In this document: positions 4,360-38,752 of the stretch, piece by piece
Layout: each line of letters opens with the position of its first letter
Position numbering within the stretch: position 1 is the first letter of the stretch
Position numbers and translations under genes: made by a program
DNA from: Candidatus Pacearchaeota archaeon
GTDB lineage: Archaea; Nanobdellota; Nanobdellia; Pacearchaeales; GW2011-AR1
Direction of reading: 5' to 3'
Length of the DNA stretch: 64,000 nt
NCBI GenBank assembly: GCA_023132255.1
Contig: JAGLYK010000011.1
Coordinates: forward strand, 5,847-69,846
Notes under the pieces: model-generated
Databases searched by the model: none
Told to the model about the DNA's origin: nothing
The model's input: only the letters and a program-made list of their open reading frames with translations

Positions 4360-4481
4360 TGCGGAGAACAGGATTCGAACCCATGTAGGCACTAAGCCAC
4401 CAGGTCCTAAGCTTGGCCTTCTATTAAAAATTAAATTTATCTAATAAAATCTGGCCCGTTTGACCACTCCGGCATCTCCGC
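4360..4481 (-). tRNA. tRNA-Leu (anticodon UAG), class II with a long variable arm and a 38-nt intron between positions 30 and 31.
   Basis: Reverse complement gives acceptor GCGGAGA/TCTCCGC and D-arm CCG-GAGTGGTCAAA-CGG. After removing ATTTTATTAGATAAATTTAATTTTTAATAGAAGGCCAA the anticodon stem is CCAGG/CCTGG with loop CUUAGGA. Variable arm is TGGCTTAGTGCCTAC and the T-loop is TTCGAAT. Exons are at 4451-4481 and 4360-4412. Confidence 0.6.
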
Positions 4482-20643: not shown

Positions 20644-20780
20644 GGTCCTGTAGCTCAGTTTGGATAGAGCGACTGCCTTCTAATTAGTAAAGAAGAATCT
20701 GGAAACTAAAGTTTCCATTAGCCTCTTCATAAAATAAAGAGGGAAGCAGTAGGTCGCAGGTTCAAATCCTGTCAGGGCCA
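20644..20780 (+). tRNA. tRNA-Arg (anticodon UCU) with a 62-nt intron at the canonical 37/38 position.
   Basis: Acceptor GGTCCTG/CAGGGCC, D-arm GCTC-AGTTTGGATA-GAGC, anticodon stem ACTGC/GCAGT, loop CUUCUAA, T-arm GCAGG-TTCAAAT-CCTGT. Intron 20683-20744 contains hairpin GGAAACTaaAGTTTCC. Confidence 0.7.
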
Positions 20781-30946: not shown

Positions 30947-31465
30947 CTAAGGTCTCAACCACTTAACTTCATAATAAGTTATGTCTCCTTCTTCGTCGAC
31001 AATTGCCAGAAGCAGGTTTTTCTTTGTTGAGTGGGCAACCCTGTTTTTTGCAGAGAATTCATGCCAGGTTAATCTTTTTGATTCATGGTCTGCAAAGACA
31101 ATCCATTTTGCGTGCTTTTTCCCGGGTCTTTGTCCTTTGTCATAAATTCTAAAATCTGCCCCGAACTTTAATGCAGTTTTCACGATATAACCTTTTTCCC
31201 TTAAGTCCTTGAATACAGGATATTTAATCTGGATTTTTTTGTCAATTCTTTTGAATTTATTCATTAATTCTTTTTCTGATATTTTTTTGTTTCTTGAGAA
31301 TACTTCTATTTTATTTTTTTCAACTAAAAATAACGTTTCTGAAAGAGAGTACTGGATTTTCCCTGCAACTGGTTCGCCAAAGCAACTTTTTTTGTAAAGT
31401 GCATGAGCTTCAGAAGAATTGCTGGAAATTATTTCTCCTATGATGTGTGCTTGGATTTTTTTCAT
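30947..31465 (-). CDS. endA: tRNA-splicing endonuclease (EndA, homo-oligomeric type).
   Basis: ALKFGADFRIYDKG...HAKWIV catalytic region (His and Lys); N-terminal LFLVEK; 172 aa. Confidence 0.75.
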   Translation of the reverse strand: MKKIQAHIIGEIISSNSSEAHALYKKSCFGEPVAGKIQYSLSETLFLVEKNKIEVFSRNKKISEKELMNKFKRIDKKIQIKYPVFKDLREKGYIVKTALKFGADFRIYDKGQRPGKKHAKWIVFADHESKRLTWHEFSAKNRVAHSTKKNLLLAIVDEEGDITYYEVKWLRP

Positions 31466-31499: not shown

Positions 31500-34400
31500 T
31501 TGAAAGGTAATTATCTTATGAAATACAATTTCAAAAAACTTGAAAAGAAATGGCAGAGGAAGTGGGAGCAGGAGAAAGTTTTTTGGGTTGATGTTCAGCA
31601 GAAATCCAAGAAGAAAAAATTTTATTTGATGGAGATGTTTCCGTATCCATCGGCTTTGGGGCTGCATTTGGGTCATGTGTTGAATTATACTATTGGCGAT
31701 ATTCTTGCACGTTTTAAGAGGATGAAGGGGTTTAATGTTTTGTATCCAATGGGGTTTGATTCACTTGGACTGCCTGCGGAGAATGCGGCGATAAAAGCAG
31801 GAACACATCCGAAGCCTTACACAAAAAAGGCGATTAAGAATTATATCAAGCAGATGAAGGATTTGGGGCTGAGTTATGATTGGAGTAAGCTTGTGAATAC
31901 AATGGAGCCGGAATATTATAAATGGAACCAGTTGTTTTTTCTGAAGTTTTTGGAGAAAGGTTTGGCTTATCGGAAAAAGTCTGCGGTGAATTGGTGTCCT
32001 GAGTGTAATAGTGTTTTGGCGAATGAGCAGGTGCATAATGGAAAGTGCTGGAGGCATGAGGATACTGAGGTTGAGATTAAACATCTGGAGCAGTGGTTTT
32101 TGAAAATTACAGATTATGCTGATGAACTGCTGGACGGGATTAATGATTTGCAGTGGCCTCAGAAAATTAAAACAATGCAGAAAAACTGGATTGGAAAAAG
32201 TTATGGGACTGAGATTGATTTTGAGATAGAGAATACCGACGAGAAAATTTCAAATGTTGTGATTGTTCATGGGTCACCAAAGGAAGACAGACCTGATGAA
32301 TTTCCTCAAAATAAAAAACATTGGATTCTTTGGTTAAAGAAAGAATTAGAAAATCAAGGAATTAACACACATAATATTTTAATGCCTCAACCTTGGAAAC
32401 CAAATTATGAAAATTGGAAAAAAGAATTTGAAAAATTAAATGTTAATGAAAATACAATTTTAGTTGGACATAGTGCAGGAGGAGCATTTATGGTTCGATG
32501 GCTTAGTGAAAAACCGAGAAAAATAAAAAAACTAATTTTGATTGCTCCATCGAAGGAGACTACGAAAGATAGTCAGAGATTAAAAGAATTTTGTAATTTT
32601 AATATCAATGAAAAAATAAAAGATTTTGTTAAAGAAATAATAATCTTCATTTCTAATGATAAAAAAGAAACAATTAGGAGTGCTGGAATTTATAAAAAAA
32701 AATTAAATGCAGAATTAATAAATTTAGAGAATAGAGGTCATTTTACACTAAATGGAATGAAAACAAAAGAATTTCCAGAACTTCTTGAAAAAATTATTTC
32801 AAATAAAAAATTCCCTGTTTTTACAACTCGTCCTGATACAATTTATGGTGTAACTTTTATGGTTGTTTCTGCGCAGCATGAAAAATTAATGGAGTTAGTT
32901 ACTAAAGAGCAGAAAAAAGATGTTGAGAAATTTTTGCATAAAATTAAAAGTGTATCTGATAAGGATGCTGTTAACTTAGACAAGCAGGGAGTTTTCACTG
33001 GGAGTTATGCAATTAATCCGATTAATGGAGAAAAGGTTCCTGTTTATGCAGGGAATTTTGTTGTGGCTGAATATGGCTCTGGAATGGTGATGGGTGTTCC
33101 TGCACATGACCAAAGAGATTTTGATTTTGCGAAGAAATATGGTTTGGAGATTAGAGAAGTTATTAAAGGGGGGGATGTGAAAAAACAATCTTATATTGGT
33201 TCTGGGAAATTGATTAATTCTTCAAGTTTCAATGGTTTGGAAAATGAAAAAGCAAAACAAGAAATCACTAAATTTTTGGAGAAGAAAAAGTTGGGAAGGA
33301 AAACTGTTCAGTTTAAAATGCGTGATTGGTTGATTTCTCGTCAGAGATATTGGGGGACGCCGATTCCTGTTGTTTATTGTGACAAGTGCGGGATTGTTCC
33401 GGTTGATGAAAAAGATTTGCCTGTGATTTTGCCTGAGAAAGTTGTGTTTGGAAAAGGCAATCCTCTTGCGACAAATGAAAAGTTTGTGAATGTGAAATGC
33501 CCGAAATGCAATGCCAAGGCGAAAAGGGAAACAGATACAATGGATACTTTTGTTGATTCGTCGTGGTATTTTATGAGGTACCCTGATAATAAAAATTCTA
33601 AAGAACCGTTTGATAAAAAGATTGAGGCGGATTGGCTGCCTGTTGACCAATATATTGGAGGGATTGAACACGCGACAATGCATTTGCTTTATGCGAGATT
33701 CTGGACAAAGGCTCTTCGGGATTTGGGTTATGTGAATTATGACGAGCCGTTTACAAAACTGTTTAATCAGGGGATGTTGCATGGGGAGGACGGAGAGAAA
33801 ATGTCAAAGTCAAAAGGAAATGTTATTCTGCCGGAAATTGTTTCTGAAAAATATGGAATTGATACTGCGAGATTTTTCCTGATGTCCCTTGCTGCTCCGG
33901 ACAAACCTCGAGATTGGAGTGATAAAGGTGTGCAGGGAAGTTTGAAATTTATTAACAAAGTGATGAGTTATTTTGGCACCCAAGGGTGTACCCCACAAGG
34001 GGGCATCAAGATTGGAAAATCTTCTGCGAAAATTGAGAGTAAGTTAAATAAAACAATTAAAGAAGTTACAGGGCAGATTGAAAATTTTAAATATAATTTG
34101 GCTGTGATTAAGATTCGGGATTTGTTTAATTCTTTGGGTGAAGAAGAGAGCAAGGATGTTTTGGAAAAAAGTTTGAAATTGCTGCACCCTTTTTGCCCTC
34201 ATATTACAGAAGAAATTTGGGAGAAGATTGGATCATCCTCGAAAAACCGAGGACGTAAAAATTTTATTTGTTTAGAAAAATGGCCTGTTGCTGACGAGAA
34301 AAAGATTGACGAGAAGTTTGAAAAACAAGAACAAGCTGCTGAAAAGTTAAAATCAGATATAGAGCAGATTAAAAAATTAACAGGGCACCACGGGCGTACC

Positions 34401-34601
34401 CCGAAAGATTTTTTACAAAAATCTTTACAAGGGGCAAAGAAAGAGGTTAAGGTTTATGTTTATGTTCTGCCAAATGAATTGGATTTGTATTCTGAAATTA
34501 AAGGGATTGAAGTTTTTGCAGTTAATGACAAGAAAAAATATGACCCCAAAAATAAATCAAAGAAAGTTAAACCAGGAAGACCAGGGGTTTATTTAGAATG
34601 A
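31500..34601 (+). CDS. leuS: Leucyl-tRNA synthetase with an alpha/beta serine-hydrolase domain (about 187 aa, YdeN/RBBP9-like) inserted immediately before the CP1 editing domain.
   Basis: HLGH (HIGH) motif and NWIGKS, then the insert (nt 32250-32810, VIVHGS...LVGHSAGG...RGHFT), then TTRPDT editing domain with VPAHD, and KMSKS. Confidence 0.85.
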   Translation: MKGNYLMKYNFKKLEKKWQRKWEQEKVFWVDVQQKSKKKKFYLMEMFPYPSALGLHLGHVLNYTIGDILARFKRMKGFNVLYPMGFDSLGLPAENAAIKAGTHPKPYTKKAIKNYIKQMKDLGLSYDWSKLVNTMEPEYYKWNQLFFLKFLEKGLAYRKKSAVNWCPECNSVLANEQVHNGKCWRHEDTEVEIKHLEQWFLKITDYADELLDGINDLQWPQKIKTMQKNWIGKSYGTEIDFEIENTDEKISNVVIVHGSPKEDRPDEFPQNKKHWILWLKKELENQGINTHNILMPQPWKPNYENWKKEFEKLNVNENTILVGHSAGGAFMVRWLSEKPRKIKKLILIAPSKETTKDSQRLKEFCNFNINEKIKDFVKEIIIFISNDKKETIRSAGIYKKKLNAELINLENRGHFTLNGMKTKEFPELLEKIISNKKFPVFTTRPDTIYGVTFMVVSAQHEKLMELVTKEQKKDVEKFLHKIKSVSDKDAVNLDKQGVFTGSYAINPINGEKVPVYAGNFVVAEYGSGMVMGVPAHDQRDFDFAKKYGLEIREVIKGGDVKKQSYIGSGKLINSSSFNGLENEKAKQEITKFLEKKKLGRKTVQFKMRDWLISRQRYWGTPIPVVYCDKCGIVPVDEKDLPVILPEKVVFGKGNPLATNEKFVNVKCPKCNAKAKRETDTMDTFVDSSWYFMRYPDNKNSKEPFDKKIEADWLPVDQYIGGIEHATMHLLYARFWTKALRDLGYVNYDEPFTKLFNQGMLHGEDGEKMSKSKGNVILPEIVSEKYGIDTARFFLMSLAAPDKPRDWSDKGVQGSLKFINKVMSYFGTQGCTPQGGIKIGKSSAKIESKLNKTIKEVTGQIENFKYNLAVIKIRDLFNSLGEEESKDVLEKSLKLLHPFCPHITEEIWEKIGSSSKNRGRKNFICLEKWPVADEKKIDEKFEKQEQAAEKLKSDIEQIKKLTGHHGRTPKDFLQKSLQGAKKEVKVYVYVLPNELDLYSEIKGIEVFAVNDKKKYDPKNKSKKVKPGRPGVYLE

Positions 34602-35170
34602 ATGTTGTGATTATTCATGGAAGTAGTTCTAAGGATAGAGAAAATATAAAAAAATATGGGCTTCCTCCTCAAAATGAAAGACATTGGCTTCCTTGGATTA
34701 AATATGAATTAGAAAAAAAGAATATTCAAACTTTTACTCCGTTAATGCCTAAGAATTGGAAAGAAGAATATGAAGATTGGAAAAGAGAGTTTGAAAAAAA
34801 TGAAATTAATAAAGATAGTATTTTAGTTGGGCATAGTTCTGGGGCAGATTTTTTAGTTAGGTGGTTAGGAGAAACAGGTAGAAATGTCAAAAAATTAATT
34901 TTGGTAGCACCTGGCAAATTATATACGAATTATTCAGTTTCTTTTACAAAGTTTTGTGATTTTAAAATTGATTCTAAAATTAAGAATAACATTGGGGAGA
35001 TTATTATTTTTATTTCAAATAATGATTTGGAAGTTATTTTTAAGAGTGCTAAATTATATGAAAAAAAGTTAAATGCAAAATTAATAGAATTGAAAGGTAG
35101 AGGGCATTTTACAGAGAAAGGAATGGGAACAAAAGAATTTCCTGAATTGTTGGAAAAAATCTTGGAATGA
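34598..35170 (+). CDS. Free-standing serine hydrolase (YdeN/RBBP9-like alpha/beta hydrolase), paralog of the LeuRS insert.
   Basis: VVIIHGS...LVGHSSGA...RGHFT; about 55% identical to LeuRS aa 251-437; start overlaps the leuS stop. Confidence 0.75.
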   Translation: MNVVIIHGSSSKDRENIKKYGLPPQNERHWLPWIKYELEKKNIQTFTPLMPKNWKEEYEDWKREFEKNEINKDSILVGHSSGADFLVRWLGETGRNVKKLILVAPGKLYTNYSVSFTKFCDFKIDSKIKNNIGEIIIFISNNDLEVIFKSAKLYEKKLNAKLIELKGRGHFTEKGMGTKEFPELLEKILE

Positions 35171-35262: not shown

Positions 35263-35652
35263 ATGGTTTATACAGCAGTTGAGAACATTGCGTTTGTTGT
35301 GATTATTGCTGGTTTGATAAAGATGTTTGTTCTTTTAATTAAGCCTCAGGCATGGATGAATTTTGCGAAGAGGATTTATAGCAAACCACAGATTGCGAAA
35401 TTTGTCAGCTTAATTTTGGCAGTGGTTGTTTTTTATTATTTGTATAGTGCAGGAATTACAGTTGTTGAGATTTTAGCAGTAACGGCATTTGTAGCTCTTT
35501 TGATGATGATAGCACTTGCAGATGAAGTTGACTACCTTCTCAAGAAATATCAGGCAATGATCAAGAAAGGCAATCTTTGGAAGAACTATTGGCTTTATAC
35601 ATTATTGTGGCTTGTTTTAATGTTTTGGGGTCTTAAAGAACTTCTCATGTAA
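35263..35652 (+). CDS. Small membrane protein.
   Basis: About 4 predicted TM helices. Confidence 0.4.
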   Translation: MVYTAVENIAFVVIIAGLIKMFVLLIKPQAWMNFAKRIYSKPQIAKFVSLILAVVVFYYLYSAGITVVEILAVTAFVALLMMIALADEVDYLLKKYQAMIKKGNLWKNYWLYTLLWLVLMFWGLKELLM

Positions 35653-35711: not shown

Positions 35712-36899
35712 ATGGTTAGGGTCAAGAAAGAAAAAGAAGAAAGCGATTCAAAATCTAATCAGGATGTTTTTAAGAATTTTTTTAACAGGTTTAAAAGAAA
35801 AAAACAAAAGTTTTCACCAAAGATTGTTTCTAAAAAAATTAAAGTCAGAGAAACTGATAAATTTAGTATTACACAAAAATATTTGATAGTTTTTGTAGTT
35901 ATTGTTTCTTTTTTTATTTTAGTTATTGCCGGAGGATATTTGTTCAATATTGCAAAAGGAAAAAATGTTCAAGCAATTCCTGTTTGCGGGGACAATTCAT
36001 TTTATGATACTTGCTCCTTGACAAAACCTTATTTTTGTTTAGATGGGGCACTTTTAGAGAAGGCTTCTGTTTGTGGTTGTCCAGAAATTTTAAAGAGAGA
36101 AGGAGATAGTTGTATTTCTGATTATCAAAATTCTTCAAAAGAGATAACTCTAAAATATGTTTTGAGGGGAGAAGAAAAAGAAATTAATTATGTAGTTTAT
36201 GGTGGTTTGGTTGATTATTTGTTTAATCTTCCTAAGAGTATTTCTTATGATGAAAATGAGAAACCTTCTAGAAGGGATTTTAAACTTAAGAATCTTGATG
36301 AAAAAGAACAAAAGGAATTGCTGTTGGGGTTGGTTATGAAAATACAAAATCTTACGCCTGTTGAAGAGGACCAGATGAGGATTGCTGTGAGTCTTGTTCA
36401 GAATATTCCTTATGCAGAATCTGAAAAAACTTTTATCATGAGGAATGTTGTGTTTAATTATTCCAGGTATCCTTATGAAGTCCTTTATGATAATGCGGGA
36501 ATTTGCGGGGAGAAATCTGAACTCCTGGCTTTTTTATTGAGGGAAATGGGATACGAGGTTGTTTTCTTTTATCATGCCTACGAAAACCATGAGTCTGTGG
36601 GGATAAAATGTCCTGTAAAAGAGAGCCTTGATGACACAGGCTATTGTTTTATTGAAACAACAGGTCTGTCTATAATTACTGATGATTCTATAGAATATGT
36701 TGGGGGAATAAGTCTGGTTTCTGAGCCCGAGGTTGCTTTAATTTCTATTGGAGATTCTTTAGGAAAAGATTTGTATGAATACAAGGATGCAGATAGTATG
36801 AAGAGAGTAAGGAATGGCGGAATTAGCTTTTTTAGGTCAATTAAATTTAACAATCTCAAGGAAAAGTATGGTTTAGTTGATGAGTATAATTTAGGATAG
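35712..36899 (+). CDS. Membrane-anchored transglutaminase-like cysteine protease domain protein.
   Basis: Basic N-terminus, one TM, Cys-rich region, core GICGEKSELLAFLLREMGY...YHAYENH (Cys-His pattern). Confidence 0.55.
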   Translation: MVRVKKEKEESDSKSNQDVFKNFFNRFKRKKQKFSPKIVSKKIKVRETDKFSITQKYLIVFVVIVSFFILVIAGGYLFNIAKGKNVQAIPVCGDNSFYDTCSLTKPYFCLDGALLEKASVCGCPEILKREGDSCISDYQNSSKEITLKYVLRGEEKEINYVVYGGLVDYLFNLPKSISYDENEKPSRRDFKLKNLDEKEQKELLLGLVMKIQNLTPVEEDQMRIAVSLVQNIPYAESEKTFIMRNVVFNYSRYPYEVLYDNAGICGEKSELLAFLLREMGYEVVFFYHAYENHESVGIKCPVKESLDDTGYCFIETTGLSIITDDSIEYVGGISLVSEPEVALISIGDSLGKDLYEYKDADSMKRVRNGGISFFRSIKFNNLKEKYGLVDEYNLG

Positions 36900-36955: not shown

Positions 36956-38752
36956 TCACTTGAGAATTGCTTTTATTCTCCTAACTCCACTTGAAGAAGA
37001 TTCTTCTTTTTTGATTTTAAAGTGTCCAAGTTCGCTGGTGTTTTTGACATGAGGACCAGAGCAGATTTCTTTGGAGCAATTTTTGATAGTGTAAACTGAA
37101 ACGACTTCCCCATATTTTGCATTAAATATCCCTGTTGCTCCTTTTTCCTTTGCCTGCTTTGGAGTCATTTCTTCCCTGATAACTTCACAGCCTCGCTGTA
37201 TTTGCGCGTTGACTAAATCTTCAACTTTTTGTAGTTCTTCATTTGTTAATTTTCTAGGAAAAGAAAAATCCAATCTTAATCTTTCAGATGTTATATTGCT
37301 TCCTTTTTGAAGGATATTTTTATCATTTAGTATTTTCCTTAATGCTGCTAAAAGCAAGTGTGTTGCAGTGTGGAGTTTTGTTGTTGCTTCTGAATCATCT
37401 GCTAAACCAGATTTGAATCTGCCTTCTGTTGCTGTTCGTGAAAGTTCCTGGTGTTTTTTTAATTCTTTTTTAAAACCTTTTTCATCAACTTTGATGTTTT
37501 TTTCTTTTGCTAATTCAATTGTCATTTCCAACGGAAAGCCGTAAGATTGGTAAAGCAGGAAAGCTTCTTTTCCTTTTAACAAATATTTTCCCTTACTCCA
37601 TTTAATTTTTTTCCTGTTCTTTCTAAATCCTTCCTTAATTTTTCGTTCCCATCCATTAAAAATTCTCATACCTTTTTCCAGGCTTAAATTAAATTTTTCT
37701 TCTTCTTTTTCTAATTCTTGCAAAATATGTTTTTTGTTTTTTTGTAATTTTGAATAATCGTTGTAGATTTTGAAAACTGGTTCTGCAACTTTGTAAGTGA
37801 AATCCCTCAATCCGATTTCTCTACCATATCTGATGGCTCTTCTAATTAATCTTCGTAAAACATAACCCTGTTCTGTGTTTGAAGAGGTTATTCCGTCGGC
37901 AATGATAAAAACAGATGCTTTGATGTGATCTGCAATTATTCGCATTGTTCTTTTATTTCCTTTGTATTTTTTCCCAGAAAGCTTTTCTATTTTTTTAATA
38001 ATTAGTTTCCACATTTCTGCTTCATAATCATCTTCTAAATTATTTAATATTGCAACTGTTCTTTCAACACCCATGCCTGTGTCAATGTTTTTTTGTGATG
38101 CTTCATTGTAATTTCCTTCTTCATCTTTGTTATATTGCATTAAAACATCATTCCAGATTTCTACCCATCTTTCATCTTTTGGATCAAATTTTTTTGGAGC
38201 AGGAATTTTATTTGGAGACCAGTAAAACATTTCTGTACAGGGTCCGCAAGGTCCTGTTTTTCCAGCAGGTCCCCACCAATTGTCTTCTTTTCCTAAGAAA
38301 GCAATTCTTTCTTTTTGGATTCCTAAGGATTTCCAAGCTTCTGCAGCTTCGTTGTCTTTTAGAGCATCTTTATTTCCTGCAAAACAAGTTACTGCTAATC
38401 TTTGCACAGGAATTTTAAGATGCTTTGTTAGAAATTCAAAACTCATTTCAATTGCCTCTTTTTTAAAGTAGTCTCCTAAACTCCAGTTTCCAATCATTTC
38501 AAAAAAAGTATGGTGTGTTGAATCTCCAACTTCTTCAATGTCACCTGTTCTTATACATTTTTGGGCATTCATTAGCCTTTTTCCTAGAGGGTGTTTTTGT
38601 CCCAATAAGTATGGGACTATAGGATGCATTCCTGCTGAAATAAATAATGTTGTTGGGTCGTTTTCCGGGATGAGACTTGTGTTAGGGATTTCTTTGTGGT
38701 TTTTACTTTTAAAAAAATTAAAATATTTTTTTATTAATTGTTTTCTGTCCAT
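36956..38752 (-). CDS. alaS: Alanyl-tRNA synthetase, compact 598-aa form lacking the C-Ala domain.
   Basis: PENDPTTLFISAGM, QKCIRTGDIEEVG, HHTFFEMIGNWSLGDYFK, GPCGPCTE, IDTGMGVERT, editing HTATHLL...CSGPH. Confidence 0.75.
   Translation of the reverse strand: MDRKQLIKKYFNFFKSKNHKEIPNTSLIPENDPTTLFISAGMHPIVPYLLGQKHPLGKRLMNAQKCIRTGDIEEVGDSTHHTFFEMIGNWSLGDYFKKEAIEMSFEFLTKHLKIPVQRLAVTCFAGNKDALKDNEAAEAWKSLGIQKERIAFLGKEDNWWGPAGKTGPCGPCTEMFYWSPNKIPAPKKFDPKDERWVEIWNDVLMQYNKDEEGNYNEASQKNIDTGMGVERTVAILNNLEDDYEAEMWKLIIKKIEKLSGKKYKGNKRTMRIIADHIKASVFIIADGITSSNTEQGYVLRRLIRRAIRYGREIGLRDFTYKVAEPVFKIYNDYSKLQKNKKHILQELEKEEEKFNLSLEKGMRIFNGWERKIKEGFRKNRKKIKWSKGKYLLKGKEAFLLYQSYGFPLEMTIELAKEKNIKVDEKGFKKELKKHQELSRTATEGRFKSGLADDSEATTKLHTATHLLLAALRKILNDKNILQKGSNITSERLRLDFSFPRKLTNEELQKVEDLVNAQIQRGCEVIREEMTPKQAKEKGATGIFNAKYGEVVSVYTIKNCSKEICSGPHVKNTSELGHFKIKKEESSSSGVRRIKAILK

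What the first reader, a model, noticed from the sequence alone, without database searches (positions are those of the whole stretch)
32250..35170. Leucyl-tRNA synthetase with an intact serine-hydrolase domain spliced in front of its editing domain, plus a free-standing paralog downstream
LeuRS (31500-34601) has its normal HLGH catalytic core, the NWIGKS junction, the TTRPDT/VPAHD CP1 editing domain and KMSKS. Between NWIGKS and TTRPDT it carries an extra segment of about 187 aa (nt 32250-32810). That segment is a complete YdeN/RBBP9-type alpha/beta serine hydrolase (VIVHGS..., nucleophile elbow LVGHSAGG, C-terminal RGHFT histidine). The next gene (34598-35170, start overlapping the leuS stop) encodes the same hydrolase as a stand-alone 190-aa protein at about 55% identity (VVIIHGS, LVGHSSGA, RGHFT). 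Catalytic residues look conserved in both copies, so this is not a decaying duplication. An esterase fused at the entrance of the editing site of a synthetase suggests an additional hydrolytic proof-reading or deacylation activity (cis in LeuRS, trans for the free copy), or a moonlighting function. I know of no described LeuRS with this architecture.
Basis: partly seen in the sequence, partly recalled or inferred. Interest (0 to 1): 0.85.

Follow-up and report, generated by a model that had tools for sequence, protein, structure and literature searches.

The report
Serine hydrolase module embedded in LeuRS
A leucyl-tRNA synthetase of a tiny symbiotic archaeon carries a complete serine hydrolase spliced into its proofreading domain, with a second free copy next door; the same undescribed plug-in design recurs in over a hundred relatives, so the two enzymes probably work together.

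Summary
ORF 31500-34601 is a bacterial-type LeuRS with intact HIGH, KMSKS and CP1 editing motifs. A complete YdeN/RBBP9-type alpha/beta serine hydrolase (aa 249-436) sits exactly between T. thermophilus LeuRS residues 241 and 242, in the first beta-hairpin of CP1. ORF 34598-35170 (ATGA overlap) is a free paralog, 56% identical.

It is not unique. At least 100 LeuRS of DPANN archaea and CPR bacteria carry this module, mostly at the same hairpin and sometimes at two other internal sites, never at a terminus. In several genomes with insert-free leuS, the free hydrolase gene abuts leuS. Module and backbone phylogenies are decoupled, which indicates cassette-like exchange. One close pair of modules shows purifying selection (dN/dS about 0.15). 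Relatives carry NUDIX, Ham1, HAD or GNAT domains at the same sites.

My best reading is an active aminoacyl-type hydrolase tethered to CP1, acting in cis (insert) or trans (free copy) on a LeuRS-linked aminoacyl compound. The substrate is not resolved. Rival readings are inhibitor detoxification, leucine supply, and a passenger fusion. I found no description in the searchable literature. I rate it a new variant of a known kind, with high interest.

The parts
31500..34601 (+). leuS: bacterial-type leucyl-tRNA synthetase, 1033 aa. The likely true start is the ATG at 31518.
   Evidence: ORF. Pfam tRNA-synt_1, tRNA-synt_1_2 and Anticodon_1. NCBIfam TIGR00396 leuS_bact scores 920.6 bits against a cutoff of 548. 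PDB 1h3n matches at E 6e-216. Homologs start near the Met at aa 7.
32244..32807 (+). Inserted YdeN/RBBP9-type alpha/beta serine hydrolase module (LeuRS aa 249-436) in the first beta-hairpin of CP1.
   Evidence: Clean gap between Tt LeuRS residues 241 and 242. PF06821 scores 61 bits. AF2 model pLDDT is 91.3. Foldseek best hits are 1uxo (TM 0.80/0.86) and RBBP9-Phe 7oex (TM 0.76). The module also folds inside the full-length model. The insert-free relative L004 reads ...IDFEVNGKKFPVFTTRPDT.
32466..32483 (+). Nucleophile elbow GHSAGG (Ser325) of the inserted hydrolase.
   Evidence: It aligns with RBBP9 Ser75. Ser is present in 245 of 246 family members.
32649..32663 (+). ISNDK: presumed catalytic acid loop (Asp387). 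It is shifted by one residue relative to the RBBP9 Asp138 column.
   Evidence: All 85 inserted modules have D or E within the three-column window.
32733..32747 (+). RGHFT: catalytic His414 of the inserted hydrolase.
   Evidence: RBBP9 His165 column; His in 231 of 246 family members.
32823..32840 (+). TTRPDT threonine-rich motif of the CP1 editing site.
   Evidence: It is invariant in 70 LeuRS with and without the insert.
33099..33119 (+). PAHDQRD: the conserved editing-site aspartates of CP1.
   Evidence: H536, D537, R539 and D540 are invariant in alignment A2.
33798..33812 (+). KMSKS loop of the synthetic site.
34598..35170 (+). Free-standing paralog of the hydrolase (190 aa). Its start overlaps the leuS stop (ATGA), which suggests translational coupling.
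   Evidence: The same leuS-hydrolase arrangement occurs next to insert-free leuS in L005, L007/L008, L032, L034 and L055.
30947..31465 (-). tRNA-splicing endonuclease (endA), a conserved upstream neighbour that marks the archaeal syntenic block S17e-313aa-endA-leuS-...-alaS.
   Evidence: Pfam labels of the syntenic genes in L001, L005 and L007.

Best explanation
SHOWN:
- The window encodes a functional-looking bacterial-type LeuRS of a DPANN archaeon (Woese-/Pace-/Nanoarchaeota group).
- A whole YdeN/RBBP9-family serine hydrolase has been inserted in frame into the surface turn of the first beta-hairpin of its CP1 editing domain.
- A second, free copy is translationally coupled to the leuS stop codon.
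- This is one instance of a widespread modular system in DPANN and CPR LeuRS.
- The same hydrolase family occurs as a gene abutting leuS (trans form), or inside LeuRS at one of three internal loops (cis form), or both, as in this window.
- It is never found as a terminal fusion.
- The module's phylogeny is decoupled from that of the backbone.
- The LeuRS synthetic and CP1 editing motifs stay invariant.

INFERRED:
- The module is a catalytically active hydrolase that works together with LeuRS.
- It would attack an aminoacyl ester, amide or anhydride through Ser325, forming an aminoacyl-enzyme intermediate as RBBP9 does with single hydrophobic amino acids.
- Its substrate would be one that LeuRS makes or binds near CP1. 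The candidates are a mischarged or unwanted aminoacyl-tRNA(Leu) 3' end, or an aminoacyl-adenylate-like small molecule.
- This would add a second hydrolytic clearance activity beside the canonical CP1 site. The insert would act in cis and the free paralog in trans.
- The identity of the substrate is not established.

CONFIDENCE: the stated value of 0.42 is for the whole statement including the inferred chemistry. The architecture and its recurrence are about 0.95. Functional coupling to LeuRS is about 0.6-0.7.
For: Architecture:
- establish the insert, its position and its fold.

Recurrence:
- 84 of 121 closest LeuRS carry the module.
- Across about 390 LeuRS, insertions of 60 aa or more cluster at three sites. 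The hydrolase was found 109 times at site 1, 6-7 times at site 2 and 13 times at site 3.
- All 130 hydrolase and all 51 NUDIX occurrences are internal. None is terminal, even though the ATGA-overlapping downstream gene would make a C-terminal fusion the easiest route.

Cis/trans duality:
- Insert-free leuS is directly followed by the free hydrolase in L005, L007/8, L032, L034 and L055, and directly preceded by it in L056.
- These adjacent genes are most similar to inserted modules of other genomes, at 69-76% identity.
- In a hydrolase-centred metagenome sample, 24 of 80 loci lie inside leuS and 3-4 are adjacent. The 24 loci elsewhere share no other recurrent neighbour.

Selection:
- Ser is kept in 84 of 85 inserted modules, His in 81 of 85, and an acid in 85 of 85.
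- For the L091/L092 pair the module has dN/dS of about 0.15.

Intact host:
- TTRPDT, AHDxRD and KMSKS are invariant in LeuRS with and without the insert.

Chemistry precedent:
- RBBP9 is the characterised PF06821 member and the second-best structural match.
- It traps single Leu/Ile, Phe, Tyr and Trp as acyl-enzyme and needs a free alpha-amine. [quoted passage not shown]
- It is also reported as a valacyclovir-activating enzyme (title of Shenoy 2020, cited in PMC7730578). From my own knowledge, valacyclovir is an L-valyl ester of a nucleoside analogue.

Beyond LeuRS:
- The same module is also inserted into a GlyRS in L111, which points to aminoacylation chemistry rather than to leucine alone.
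Against: - No biochemical data exist for this subfamily.
- The RBBP9 residues that hold the substrate alpha-amine (Glu108, Tyr99, Ser76) are not conserved here.
- In the window's inserted copy the canonical acid column holds Lys, with Asp one residue earlier.
- The same LeuRS loops carry NUDIX, Ham1/ITPase, HAD and GNAT domains in relatives. An aminoacyl-tRNA editing model does not explain these.
- About half of the decidable free hydrolase genes are not near leuS, and most insert-free leuS loci have no hydrolase within 6 kb. The partnership is therefore facultative.
- CP1 is fully intact, so no editing deficit needs compensating.
- The geometry of the hydrolase active site relative to the tRNA 3'-end path could not be examined.
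Confidence: 0.42

Rival explanations
1. Built-in antidote. The module, together with the GNAT and nucleotide-hydrolase modules of relatives, would destroy aminoacyl-adenylate-mimic inhibitors of LeuRS or leaked reactive aminoacyl-adenylates. It would cleave the aminoacyl-nucleotide bond next to the enzyme they poison. This is analogous in function, not in ancestry, to microcin C immunity.
For: - Known immunity to aminoacyl-nucleotide antibiotics uses a serine peptidase that removes the aminoacyl residue (MccF), a GNAT that acetylates the alpha-amine (MccE2) and a nucleotide hydrolase (MccH) (PMC8323819).
- A natural Leu-AMP mimic, TM84, targets LeuRS (PMC8323819).
- The set of domains found in LeuRS loops matches these classes of chemistry: a serine aminoacyl-type hydrolase, GNAT, and NUDIX/Ham1/HAD.
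- Cassette-like turnover fits an arms race. Some LeuRS pairs have 95% identical backbones but modules only 50-52% identical.
- NCBI curates an IleRS with a GNAT domain among its 'exception' models, next to the mupirocin-resistance IleRS models.
Against: - The module is not homologous to MccF. The Pfam hits are PF06821 and alpha/beta hydrolase families only.
- No inhibitor of DPANN or CPR LeuRS is known.
- There is no PADLOC or other defence signal.
- NUDIX, Ham1 and HAD have no demonstrated role in such immunity.
- The reading is purely analogical.
Confidence: 0.2
2. Passenger fusion. The CP1 surface loops of this LeuRS clade are structurally permissive landing sites. Small housekeeping enzymes that happened to lie next to leuS became embedded there, gaining co-expression and retention in very small genomes, without any chemical link to LeuRS.
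For: - The inserted domains are very diverse: Ser hydrolase, NUDIX, Ham1, HAD, GNAT and a weak DUF4178 match.
- GlyRS relatives carry a His_Phos_1 domain (P0393).
- Many free hydrolase genes are unlinked to leuS.
- LeuRS active sites are unchanged.
- Insert-free, insert-only and gene-only states alternate among close relatives with 84-87% identical backbones.
Against: - Co-expression alone predicts terminal fusions, and none was found among 181 domain occurrences.
- The same hydrolase family reached three different LeuRS sites and a GlyRS independently.
- In the hydrolase-centred sample the only multi-domain hosts were aaRS and NUDIX.
- leuS is the only recurrent neighbour of the free gene.
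- The module is under purifying selection with the triad retained.
Confidence: 0.25
3. Leucine supply. The module would be an RBBP9-like aminopeptidase that releases N-terminal hydrophobic residues from scavenged peptides and feeds leucine to LeuRS in organisms that cannot synthesise amino acids.
For: - RBBP9 is an aminopeptidase that forms acyl-enzymes with Leu/Ile, Phe, Tyr and Trp (PMC8866121).
- The operon link with leuS is consistent.
- From general knowledge, DPANN and CPR organisms are auxotrophic.
Against: - It does not explain why the module is always internal, in CP1 or the zinc-knuckle loop, rather than terminal.
- It does not explain the NUDIX, Ham1, HAD and GNAT alternatives at the same sites.
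- It does not explain the GlyRS insertion.
- The RBBP9 specificity residues are not conserved.
Confidence: 0.12
4. Artefact or degenerating gene. The insert would be an assembly chimera, a frameshifted pseudogene or a decaying duplication.
For: - The GC content of the insert (0.26) is lower than that of the LeuRS backbone (0.37).
Against: - The ORF is continuous over 1033 aa.
- The same architecture occurs in more than 100 independent assemblies.
- The module is confidently folded in the full-length model.
- The catalytic motifs are conserved and the module is under purifying selection.
- The low GC matches the free copy (0.27) and is close to the window average (0.31).
Confidence: 0.01

Closest known systems
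Cis/trans aaRS editing modules (ProRS INS domain and free YbaK/ProXp; AlaRS editing domain and free AlaX; split ThrRS-ed). This comparison rests on established knowledge.
   Same: A hydrolytic domain occurs either embedded in a synthetase or as a free-standing homolog encoded in the same genomes. Here it is the insert plus the adjacent free gene.
   Different: The fold is a Ser-His-acid alpha/beta hydrolase, which is unlike any known editing fold. It is added on top of an intact CP1 editing site. Deacylase activity is untested. The module is swapped laterally and can be replaced by unrelated enzyme domains.
RBBP9 / B. subtilis YdeN (Pfam PF06821 Ser_hydrolase)
   Same: Same family and fold: Pfam 57-61 bits, Foldseek TM 0.76-0.86. 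The nucleophile Ser and catalytic His are conserved. RBBP9 hydrolyses aminoacyl amide bonds with a free alpha-amine and is reported as a valacyclovir-activating enzyme.
   Different: Identity is only about 24%. The amine-anchoring residues Glu108 and Tyr99 are not conserved. The DPANN/CPR subfamily has its own invariant motifs (HG, HWxPW, EFPELL). No member has been reported inside a synthetase.
Canonical bacterial LeuRS (T. thermophilus 1h3n, E. coli 4aq7)
   Same: Full-length homology (E 6e-216). The HIGH, KMSKS, CP1 T-rich and Asp motifs and the zinc knuckles are present.
   Different: There is a 188-aa foreign domain between Tt residues 241 and 242. The region corresponding to Tt 581-626 is absent from the alignment. 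The host is an archaeon.
Microcin C immunity enzymes MccF, MccE2 and MccH (PMC8323819)
   Same: The classes of chemistry match those found as LeuRS inserts: a serine hydrolase that removes an aminoacyl residue, a GNAT, and nucleotide hydrolases.
   Different: There is no homology to MccF (S66). No cognate antibiotic is known. The enzymes here are fused into the target synthetase rather than encoded in a biosynthetic cluster. The comparison is an analogy only.
Inteins and other in-frame insertions in essential genes
   Same: A self-contained foreign module sits at a precise site in an essential gene, with presence/absence polymorphism among close relatives and a phylogeny decoupled from the host gene.
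   Different: No Hint or endonuclease domain is present. There are no flanking repeats. The module is a conserved enzyme with no sign that it is spliced out.

Membership tests
Bacterial-type leucyl-tRNA synthetase (TIGR00396 leuS_bact) | Whole-protein score above the curated equivalog cutoff | tested here: met
   920.6 bits against a cutoff of 548.4. The archaeal model leuS_arch scores 216 bits, below its cutoff of 648.5.
Bacterial-type leucyl-tRNA synthetase (TIGR00396 leuS_bact) | HIGH and KMSKS class I signature motifs | tested here: met
   HLGH at aa 56-59 and KMSKS at aa 767-771. Both are invariant in alignment A2.
Bacterial-type leucyl-tRNA synthetase (TIGR00396 leuS_bact) | CP1 editing domain with the threonine-rich motif and conserved aspartates | tested here: met
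   PF13603 at 198 bits. TTRPDT at 442-447 and AHDQRD at 535-540 are invariant in 70 relatives.
Pfam PF06821 Ser_hydrolase (YdeN/RBBP9) | Profile score above the gathering threshold | tested here: met
   Insert 61.1 bits and free copy 51.4 bits, against a gathering score of 22.
Pfam PF06821 Ser_hydrolase (YdeN/RBBP9) | Compact alpha/beta hydrolase fold like 1uxo and 2qs9 | tested here: met
   AF2 pLDDT 91.3. Foldseek gives 1uxo at E 3.7e-13 with TM 0.80/0.86 and rmsd 2.0, and 7oex at TM 0.76/0.79.
Pfam PF06821 Ser_hydrolase (YdeN/RBBP9) | Ser nucleophile in a GxSxG elbow, and catalytic His | tested here: met
   Ser325 (GHSAG) and His414 lie in the RBBP9 S75 and H165 columns. The same holds for the free copy.
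Pfam PF06821 Ser_hydrolase (YdeN/RBBP9) | Catalytic Asp in the RBBP9 Asp138 position | tested here: inconclusive
   In the inserted copy this column holds Lys388, with Asp387 one residue earlier. The free copy has Asp. The family has E or D in 223 of 246 members. A three-residue window holds an acid in all 85 inserts.
RBBP9-type alpha-aminoacyl hydrolase (functional class) | Residues anchoring the substrate's free alpha-amine (RBBP9 Glu108, Tyr99, Ser76) | tested here: not met
   These columns are variable in the family. The window has Ser at the Glu108 column in both copies, Ser or Gly at the Tyr99 column, and Ala or Ser at the Ser76 column.
aaRS editing / trans-editing modules | Hydrolysis of mischarged aminoacyl-tRNA | not testable with these tools
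   This needs deacylation assays.
aaRS editing / trans-editing modules | Homology to a known editing fold (CP1, INS/YbaK, AlaX/N2, DTD-like, PheRS B3/B4) | tested here: not met
   Only alpha/beta hydrolase families match by sequence or fold.
aaRS editing / trans-editing modules | The same domain found embedded in the synthetase and as a free-standing protein | tested here: met
   The window has the insert plus the free ORF. Insert-free leuS with an abutting free gene occurs in L005, L007, L032, L034 and L055.
Intein / mobile insertion element | Hint splicing domain, homing endonuclease, or terminal repeats | tested here: not met
   No such Pfam hit. Only low-complexity repeats occur at the borders.
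Known anti-phage defence proteins (PADLOC) | Match to a defence-system model | tested here: not met
   No hit at E up to 0.01 for the insert or the free copy.

The most novel reading that the evidence does not exclude
DPANN and CPR LeuRS carry a swappable accessory-enzyme socket in the loops of the CP1 editing domain and the adjacent zinc knuckle. The alpha/beta serine hydrolase plugged into it, or supplied in trans from the adjacent gene, would be a previously unrecognised class of synthetase-associated hydrolytic module. It would either deacylate aminoacyl-tRNA or cleave aminoacyl-adenylate-type compounds, including natural Leu-AMP-mimic inhibitors. That would make it an editing or self-protection domain with a fold unlike any known aaRS proofreading domain.
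Probability: 0.3. Interest if true: 0.9.

Novelty: new variant of a known kind. Interest (0 to 1): 0.77.

Why it matters
Aminoacyl-tRNA synthetase proofreading is thought to rely on a small, closed set of editing folds. A conserved Ser-His hydrolase repeatedly recruited to LeuRS would add something new to that picture. It is recruited as a translationally coupled neighbour or as an insert in the CP1 and zinc-knuckle loops.

If it acts on aminoacyl-tRNA or on aminoacyl-adenylate-like molecules, it would be a new kind of quality-control or self-protection module. It occurs in the two radiations of ultra-small symbionts, CPR and DPANN, whose translation machinery is otherwise reduced.

The data also give a clear natural example of three things. 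One is interconversion between a domain and a free gene. Another is cassette-like lateral exchange of a domain inside an essential gene. The third is a set of permissive insertion sites in LeuRS that could be used for protein engineering.

The finding also offers a testable lead to the unknown physiological role of the YdeN/RBBP9 family.

Tried and rejected
1. Mobile-element signatures. No direct or inverted repeats of note occur at the insert borders, and there are no Hint or endonuclease domains.
2. Recent gene conversion between the insert and the downstream copy. The longest identical nucleotide run is 15 nt and nucleotide identity is 67%, so there is no sign of it.
3. dS comparison to decide between orthologous fast evolution and cassette replacement for window versus L001. 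It was inconclusive, because at GC3 of 0.13-0.25 the synonymous difference saturates at about 0.5-0.6. Only the L091/L092 pair is informative.
4. Conserved neighbours of the unlinked free hydrolase genes. None is recurrent.
5. Hydrolase fused to GlyRS as a general pattern. There is one case (L111), and none among the 120 closest GlyRS.
6. Transfer of RBBP9 substrate-binding residues. They are not conserved.
7. PADLOC defence models. No hit.
8. Literature. Ten full-text searches found no description of LeuRS with alpha/beta hydrolase, NUDIX, Ham1 or GNAT inserts.
9. An AFDB Foldseek search of the full-length model was not available.
10. Active-site geometry in the full-length model could not be inspected, because coordinates are not exposed.
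11. The first homolog search with the insert alone listed only free or NUDIX-fused proteins and missed the LeuRS-embedded copies. A negative result from that tool about architectures is therefore unreliable.

Full report

Yes. The window has a continuous 1033-aa ORF at 31500-34601 (+) and a 190-aa ORF at 34598-35170 (+). The stop of the first and the start of the second overlap as ATGA.

Pfam finds the class I synthetase core, the LeuRS editing domain (PF13603) and the anticodon-binding domain in the long ORF. It also finds PF06821 Ser_hydrolase at aa 271-418 (E 2.7e-15, 57 bits, gathering score 22). The excised segment scores 61 bits and the downstream ORF 51 bits. The two hydrolase copies are 56% identical over 188 residues (E 6e-71).

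phmmer against PDB sequences aligns query 7-248 to T. thermophilus LeuRS 2-241 and query 437-763 to residues 242-580. The extra 188 residues (aa 249-436, nt 32244-32807) are therefore a clean insertion between two adjacent residues of a solved LeuRS. They lie in the turn between the first two strands of CP1, five residues before TTRPDT.

HLGH, NWIGKS, TTRPDT, PAHDQRD and KMSKS are all present.

The insert alone models with pLDDT 91.3. Its best structural matches are B. subtilis YdeN (1uxo, TM 0.80/0.86, rmsd 2.0) and human RBBP9 with bound phenylalanine (7oex, TM 0.76). In the full-length model (pLDDT 86.5, pTM 0.77) the module folds with pLDDT of about 85-94 between strands 233-244 and 436-442.

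**2. What organism and what kind of LeuRS?**

The LeuRS is bacterial-type. NCBIfam leuS_bact scores 920 bits (cutoff 548), whereas leuS_arch scores 216 bits, below its cutoff. The best PDB hit is T. thermophilus LeuRS at 6e-216, against 6e-51 for P. horikoshii LeuRS.

The genome is nevertheless archaeal. The upstream neighbour is a tRNA-splicing endonuclease. The syntenic block S17e - 313-aa protein - endA - leuS - ... - alaS recurs in contigs titled Woesearchaeota, Nanoarchaeota or Pacearchaeota archaeon. Outside DPANN and CPR, the next relatives are cyanobacterial and Dehalococcoidia LeuRS at 41-44% identity.

**3. The architecture is common, not unique.**

- Of the 120 closest LeuRS plus the window's, 84 carry the hydrolase. 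The spacing between WIGKS and TTRPDT is about 205-215 residues in carriers and 17 in insert-free proteins of about 805 aa.
- The exhaustive representative search finds single-stretch full-length matches at only 41-44% identity with the same length.
- One of these is from Candidatus Uhrbacteria. Others with inserts come from Portnoybacteria, Dojkabacteria and Nanoarchaeota. The design therefore spans CPR bacteria and DPANN archaea.
- They are deposited as plain 'leucine--tRNA ligase' or 'class I tRNA ligase family protein'.
- Ten full-text searches found no paper describing LeuRS with such inserts. Absence from subscription literature cannot be excluded.

**4. Three internal sites and several domain types.**

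I mapped about 390 LeuRS onto a backbone profile. Insertions of 60 residues or more cluster at three places:

| Site | Location in window numbering | Hydrolase | NUDIX | Other |
|---|---|---|---|---|
| 1 | The hairpin used here | 109 | 3 | 15 |
| 2 | CP1 surface loop, aa ~558-568 | 6-7 | 33 | 11 |
| 3 | Just after the CDKC zinc knuckle, aa ~628-634 | 13 | 0 | 4 |

The 'other' inserts include Ham1/ITPase, HAD phosphatase and GNAT acetyltransferase domains. NUDIX inserts keep an intact Nudix box in 10 of 12 examined.

All 130 hydrolase and 51 NUDIX occurrences are internal, and none is N- or C-terminal. This is notable because a downstream gene overlapping the leuS stop would make a C-terminal fusion the easiest accident.

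**5. Cis/trans duality and gene linkage.**

- In L005 (an NCBI MAG) and L007/L008 (ENA), an insert-free leuS of about 825 aa is followed immediately by a free hydrolase gene (P0002, P0010). The genes abut or overlap by 4 nt, and the synteny matches the window.
- The GTDB species sample adds L032, L034 and L055 (hydrolase downstream) and L056 (hydrolase 28 nt upstream).
- L028 has both the insert and a downstream copy, like the window.
- The closest leuS relative (P0122/L001, backbone 87% identical) has the insert but no downstream gene. L004 (backbone 84% identical) has neither, and reads ...IDFEVNGKKFPVFTTRPDT at the site.
- About 30 insert-free DPANN loci have no hydrolase within 6 kb.
- In a hydrolase-centred metagenome sample, 24 of 80 loci lie inside leuS and 3-4 are adjacent. 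A further 24 are elsewhere and 28 are undecidable. The unlinked ones share no other recurrent neighbour.

leuS is thus the only conserved genomic partner of this hydrolase subfamily, but the partnership is facultative.

**6. The module and the backbone have different histories.**

Across 3321 LeuRS pairs, backbone identity and module identity are uncorrelated (Spearman -0.09). Examples:

| Pair | Backbone identity | Module identity |
|---|---|---|
| P0203 / P0194 | 95% | 52% |
| P0192 / P0185 | 95% | 50% |
| window / P0122 | 87% | 48% |
| window / P0152 | 60% | 77% |
| P0133 / P0152 | 66% | 90% |

- Identity collapses and recovers exactly at the domain borders.
- At the codon level, the L091/L092 modules have pS 0.31 and pN 0.06, while their backbones have pS 0.69 and pN 0.22. 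The modules therefore share a much more recent ancestor than the genes that carry them. They are under purifying selection, with dN/dS of about 0.15.
- For window versus L001 the test is uninformative, because these AT-rich modules saturate at pS of about 0.5-0.6.
- Leus-adjacent free genes are most similar to inserted modules of other genomes: L032 to P0186 at 73%, L056 to P0155 at 76%, L034 to P0123 at 69%.
- Site-2 modules are closest to a site-1 module (P0211, 70%).

The module therefore moves among the adjacent-gene, site-1 and site-2 states and between lineages. I found no transposon-like or intein-like features. Homologous replacement using conserved hydrolase segments is a plausible route, but this is an inference.

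**7. Is the module catalytically competent, and is the host intact?**

- The nucleophile Ser is kept in 84 of 85 inserted modules. The exception, P0133, has Asn. His is kept in 81 of 85, and an acid lies within a three-column window in 85 of 85.
- In the window, Ser325 and His414 align with RBBP9 Ser75 and His165. The acid is ambiguous in the inserted copy: Lys388 sits in the Asp138 column and Asp387 is one residue earlier. The free copy is canonical.
- The subfamily has its own invariant motifs, including HG, HWxPW and a C-terminal EFPELL.
- The LeuRS T-rich motif, the AHDxRD aspartates, the zinc cysteines and KMSKS are invariant in LeuRS with and without the insert. The module therefore supplements a normal editing site rather than replacing a defective one.

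**8. How it most likely works.**

The only characterised PF06821 enzyme, RBBP9, forms acyl-enzymes with single hydrophobic amino acids (Leu/Ile, Phe, Tyr, Trp). [quoted passage not shown] It is also reported as a valacyclovir-activating enzyme (title cited in PMC7730578). From my own knowledge, valacyclovir is a valyl ester of a nucleoside analogue, which is chemically close to an aminoacylated tRNA 3' end.

I combine this with five findings from above: the strict internal placement, independent arrival at three LeuRS sites, the operon-coupled trans form, the retained catalytic residues and the purifying selection. On that basis the best-supported model is an active aminoacyl-type hydrolase. 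It would work with LeuRS on something LeuRS makes or binds, namely a mischarged tRNA(Leu) end or an aminoacyl-adenylate-like compound, in cis or in trans.

I put the architecture and functional-coupling part at high confidence and the specific chemistry at about one in three. Four findings weigh against over-reading:
- The RBBP9 amine-anchoring residues are not conserved.
- CP1 is intact.
- Half of the free genes are unlinked to leuS.
- Unrelated enzymes (NUDIX, Ham1, HAD, GNAT) occupy the same loops.

**9. Rival explanations.**

a. Antidote model.
   - Immunity to aminoacyl-nucleotide antibiotics uses a serine peptidase (MccF), a GNAT (MccE2) and a nucleotide hydrolase (MccH). A natural Leu-AMP mimic (TM84) targets LeuRS (PMC8323819).
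   - The set of LeuRS inserts mirrors these classes of chemistry, and cassette turnover fits an arms race.
   - It is pure analogy: there is no homology to MccF, no known toxin and no PADLOC hit.

b. Passenger fusion into permissive loops.
   - It is supported by the diversity of inserted domains and by a GlyRS fused to His_Phos_1.
   - It is opposed by the absence of terminal fusions, by the restriction of hosts to aaRS in my sample, and by the repeated independent capture of the same family.

c. Leucine supply by an aminopeptidase. It fits RBBP9 but not the site constraint, the other domain types or the GlyRS case.

d. Artefact. Excluded.

**10. One further lead.**

In L111 the same hydrolase is inserted into a GlyRS. 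It sits between the small N-terminal appended domain and the catalytic core, as shown by comparison with the insert-free homolog P0390. It was not seen in the 120 closest GlyRS, so it is rare. It does suggest that the module's affinity is for synthetases in general rather than for leucine.

**11. Verdict.**

It is a widespread, laterally exchanged accessory-domain system in CPR and DPANN LeuRS, and it appears undescribed. Function remains unproven. I rate novelty as a new variant of a known kind (synthetase with cis/trans hydrolytic accessory modules). It would be upgraded if deacylase or antidote activity were shown.

Noticed in passing
Relatives: P0128, P0136, P0151 (site 2); P0266, P0327, P0382; P0319; P0333, P0349, P0291: The LeuRS loops that host the hydrolase carry other small enzymes in relatives. 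These are NUDIX with an intact Nudix box, Ham1/ITPase, HAD phosphatase and one or two GNAT acetyltransferase domains. Some proteins combine two or three modules, for example P0166 (1312 aa) with two hydrolases plus NUDIX.
   Followed up: partly
L111:1010-2527 (+): A DPANN GlyRS carries the same PF06821 hydrolase, inserted between its N-terminal appended domain and the catalytic core. The insert-free homolog P0390 aligns on both sides. None of the 120 closest GlyRS has it. P0393 and P0410 are GlyRS carrying a His_Phos_1 domain.
   Followed up: partly
window 31500-34601: An archaeal (DPANN) genome uses a bacterial-type LeuRS (leuS_bact 920 bits, leuS_arch below cutoff). The closest relatives outside DPANN include CPR bacteria, which suggests inter-domain transfer of leuS together with its accessory-module habit. 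Whether a second, archaeal-type leuS exists in the genome is unknown.
   Followed up: partly
window 20644-20780 (+) and 4360-4481 (-): Rfam calls tRNAs of 137 and 122 nt that ARAGORN does not report. They are probably intron-containing archaeal tRNAs, which fits the tRNA-splicing endonuclease gene at 30947-31465 next to leuS.
   Followed up: no
L092:3455-6460 (P0133): One LeuRS has the hydrolase nucleophile Ser replaced by Asn (LIGHNAGG), although its module is 87-90% identical to that of P0152. This could be a naturally inactivated module or a sequencing error.
   Followed up: no
NCBIfam NF040702 (hit list): NCBI curates an 'exception' model named 'isoleucine--tRNA ligase, N-acetyltransferase domain-containing'. 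At least one class Ia synthetase with an embedded or appended GNAT has therefore already been recognised by curators, next to the mupirocin-resistance IleRS models.
   Followed up: no
window 35263-35652 and 35712-36899 (+): A 129-aa predicted membrane protein and a 395-aa protein lie between the hydrolase gene and alaS. Neither has a Pfam match. Homologs occupy the same position in L004, so they belong to the conserved leuS-alaS block.
   Followed up: partly
window 36956-38752 (-): AlaRS is only 598 aa (562-684 aa in syntenic relatives), shorter than typical bacterial AlaRS. It is probably a trimmed C-terminal region.
   Followed up: no
window 31500 and 31518: The mechanical ORF starts at a TTG at 31500. 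Homologs begin near the ATG at 31518 (MKYNFKKLEKKWQ...), which is the more likely start.
   Followed up: partly
window 32244-32807 and 34598-35170: Both hydrolase copies are markedly more AT-rich (GC 0.26-0.27, GC3 0.14-0.19) than the LeuRS backbone (GC 0.37). This makes synonymous differences saturate near 0.5-0.6 and confounds dS-based dating.
   Followed up: yes
L009:5001-5984 (P0063) and about 326-aa proteins such as P0049, P0066, P0091: Free-standing hydrolase-NUDIX fusions, with the hydrolase N-terminal, exist in bacterial-looking contexts (sigma-70 gene nearby) and are not next to leuS. The two domain types that dominate LeuRS sites 1 and 2 are thus also linked to each other independently of LeuRS.
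   Followed up: partly
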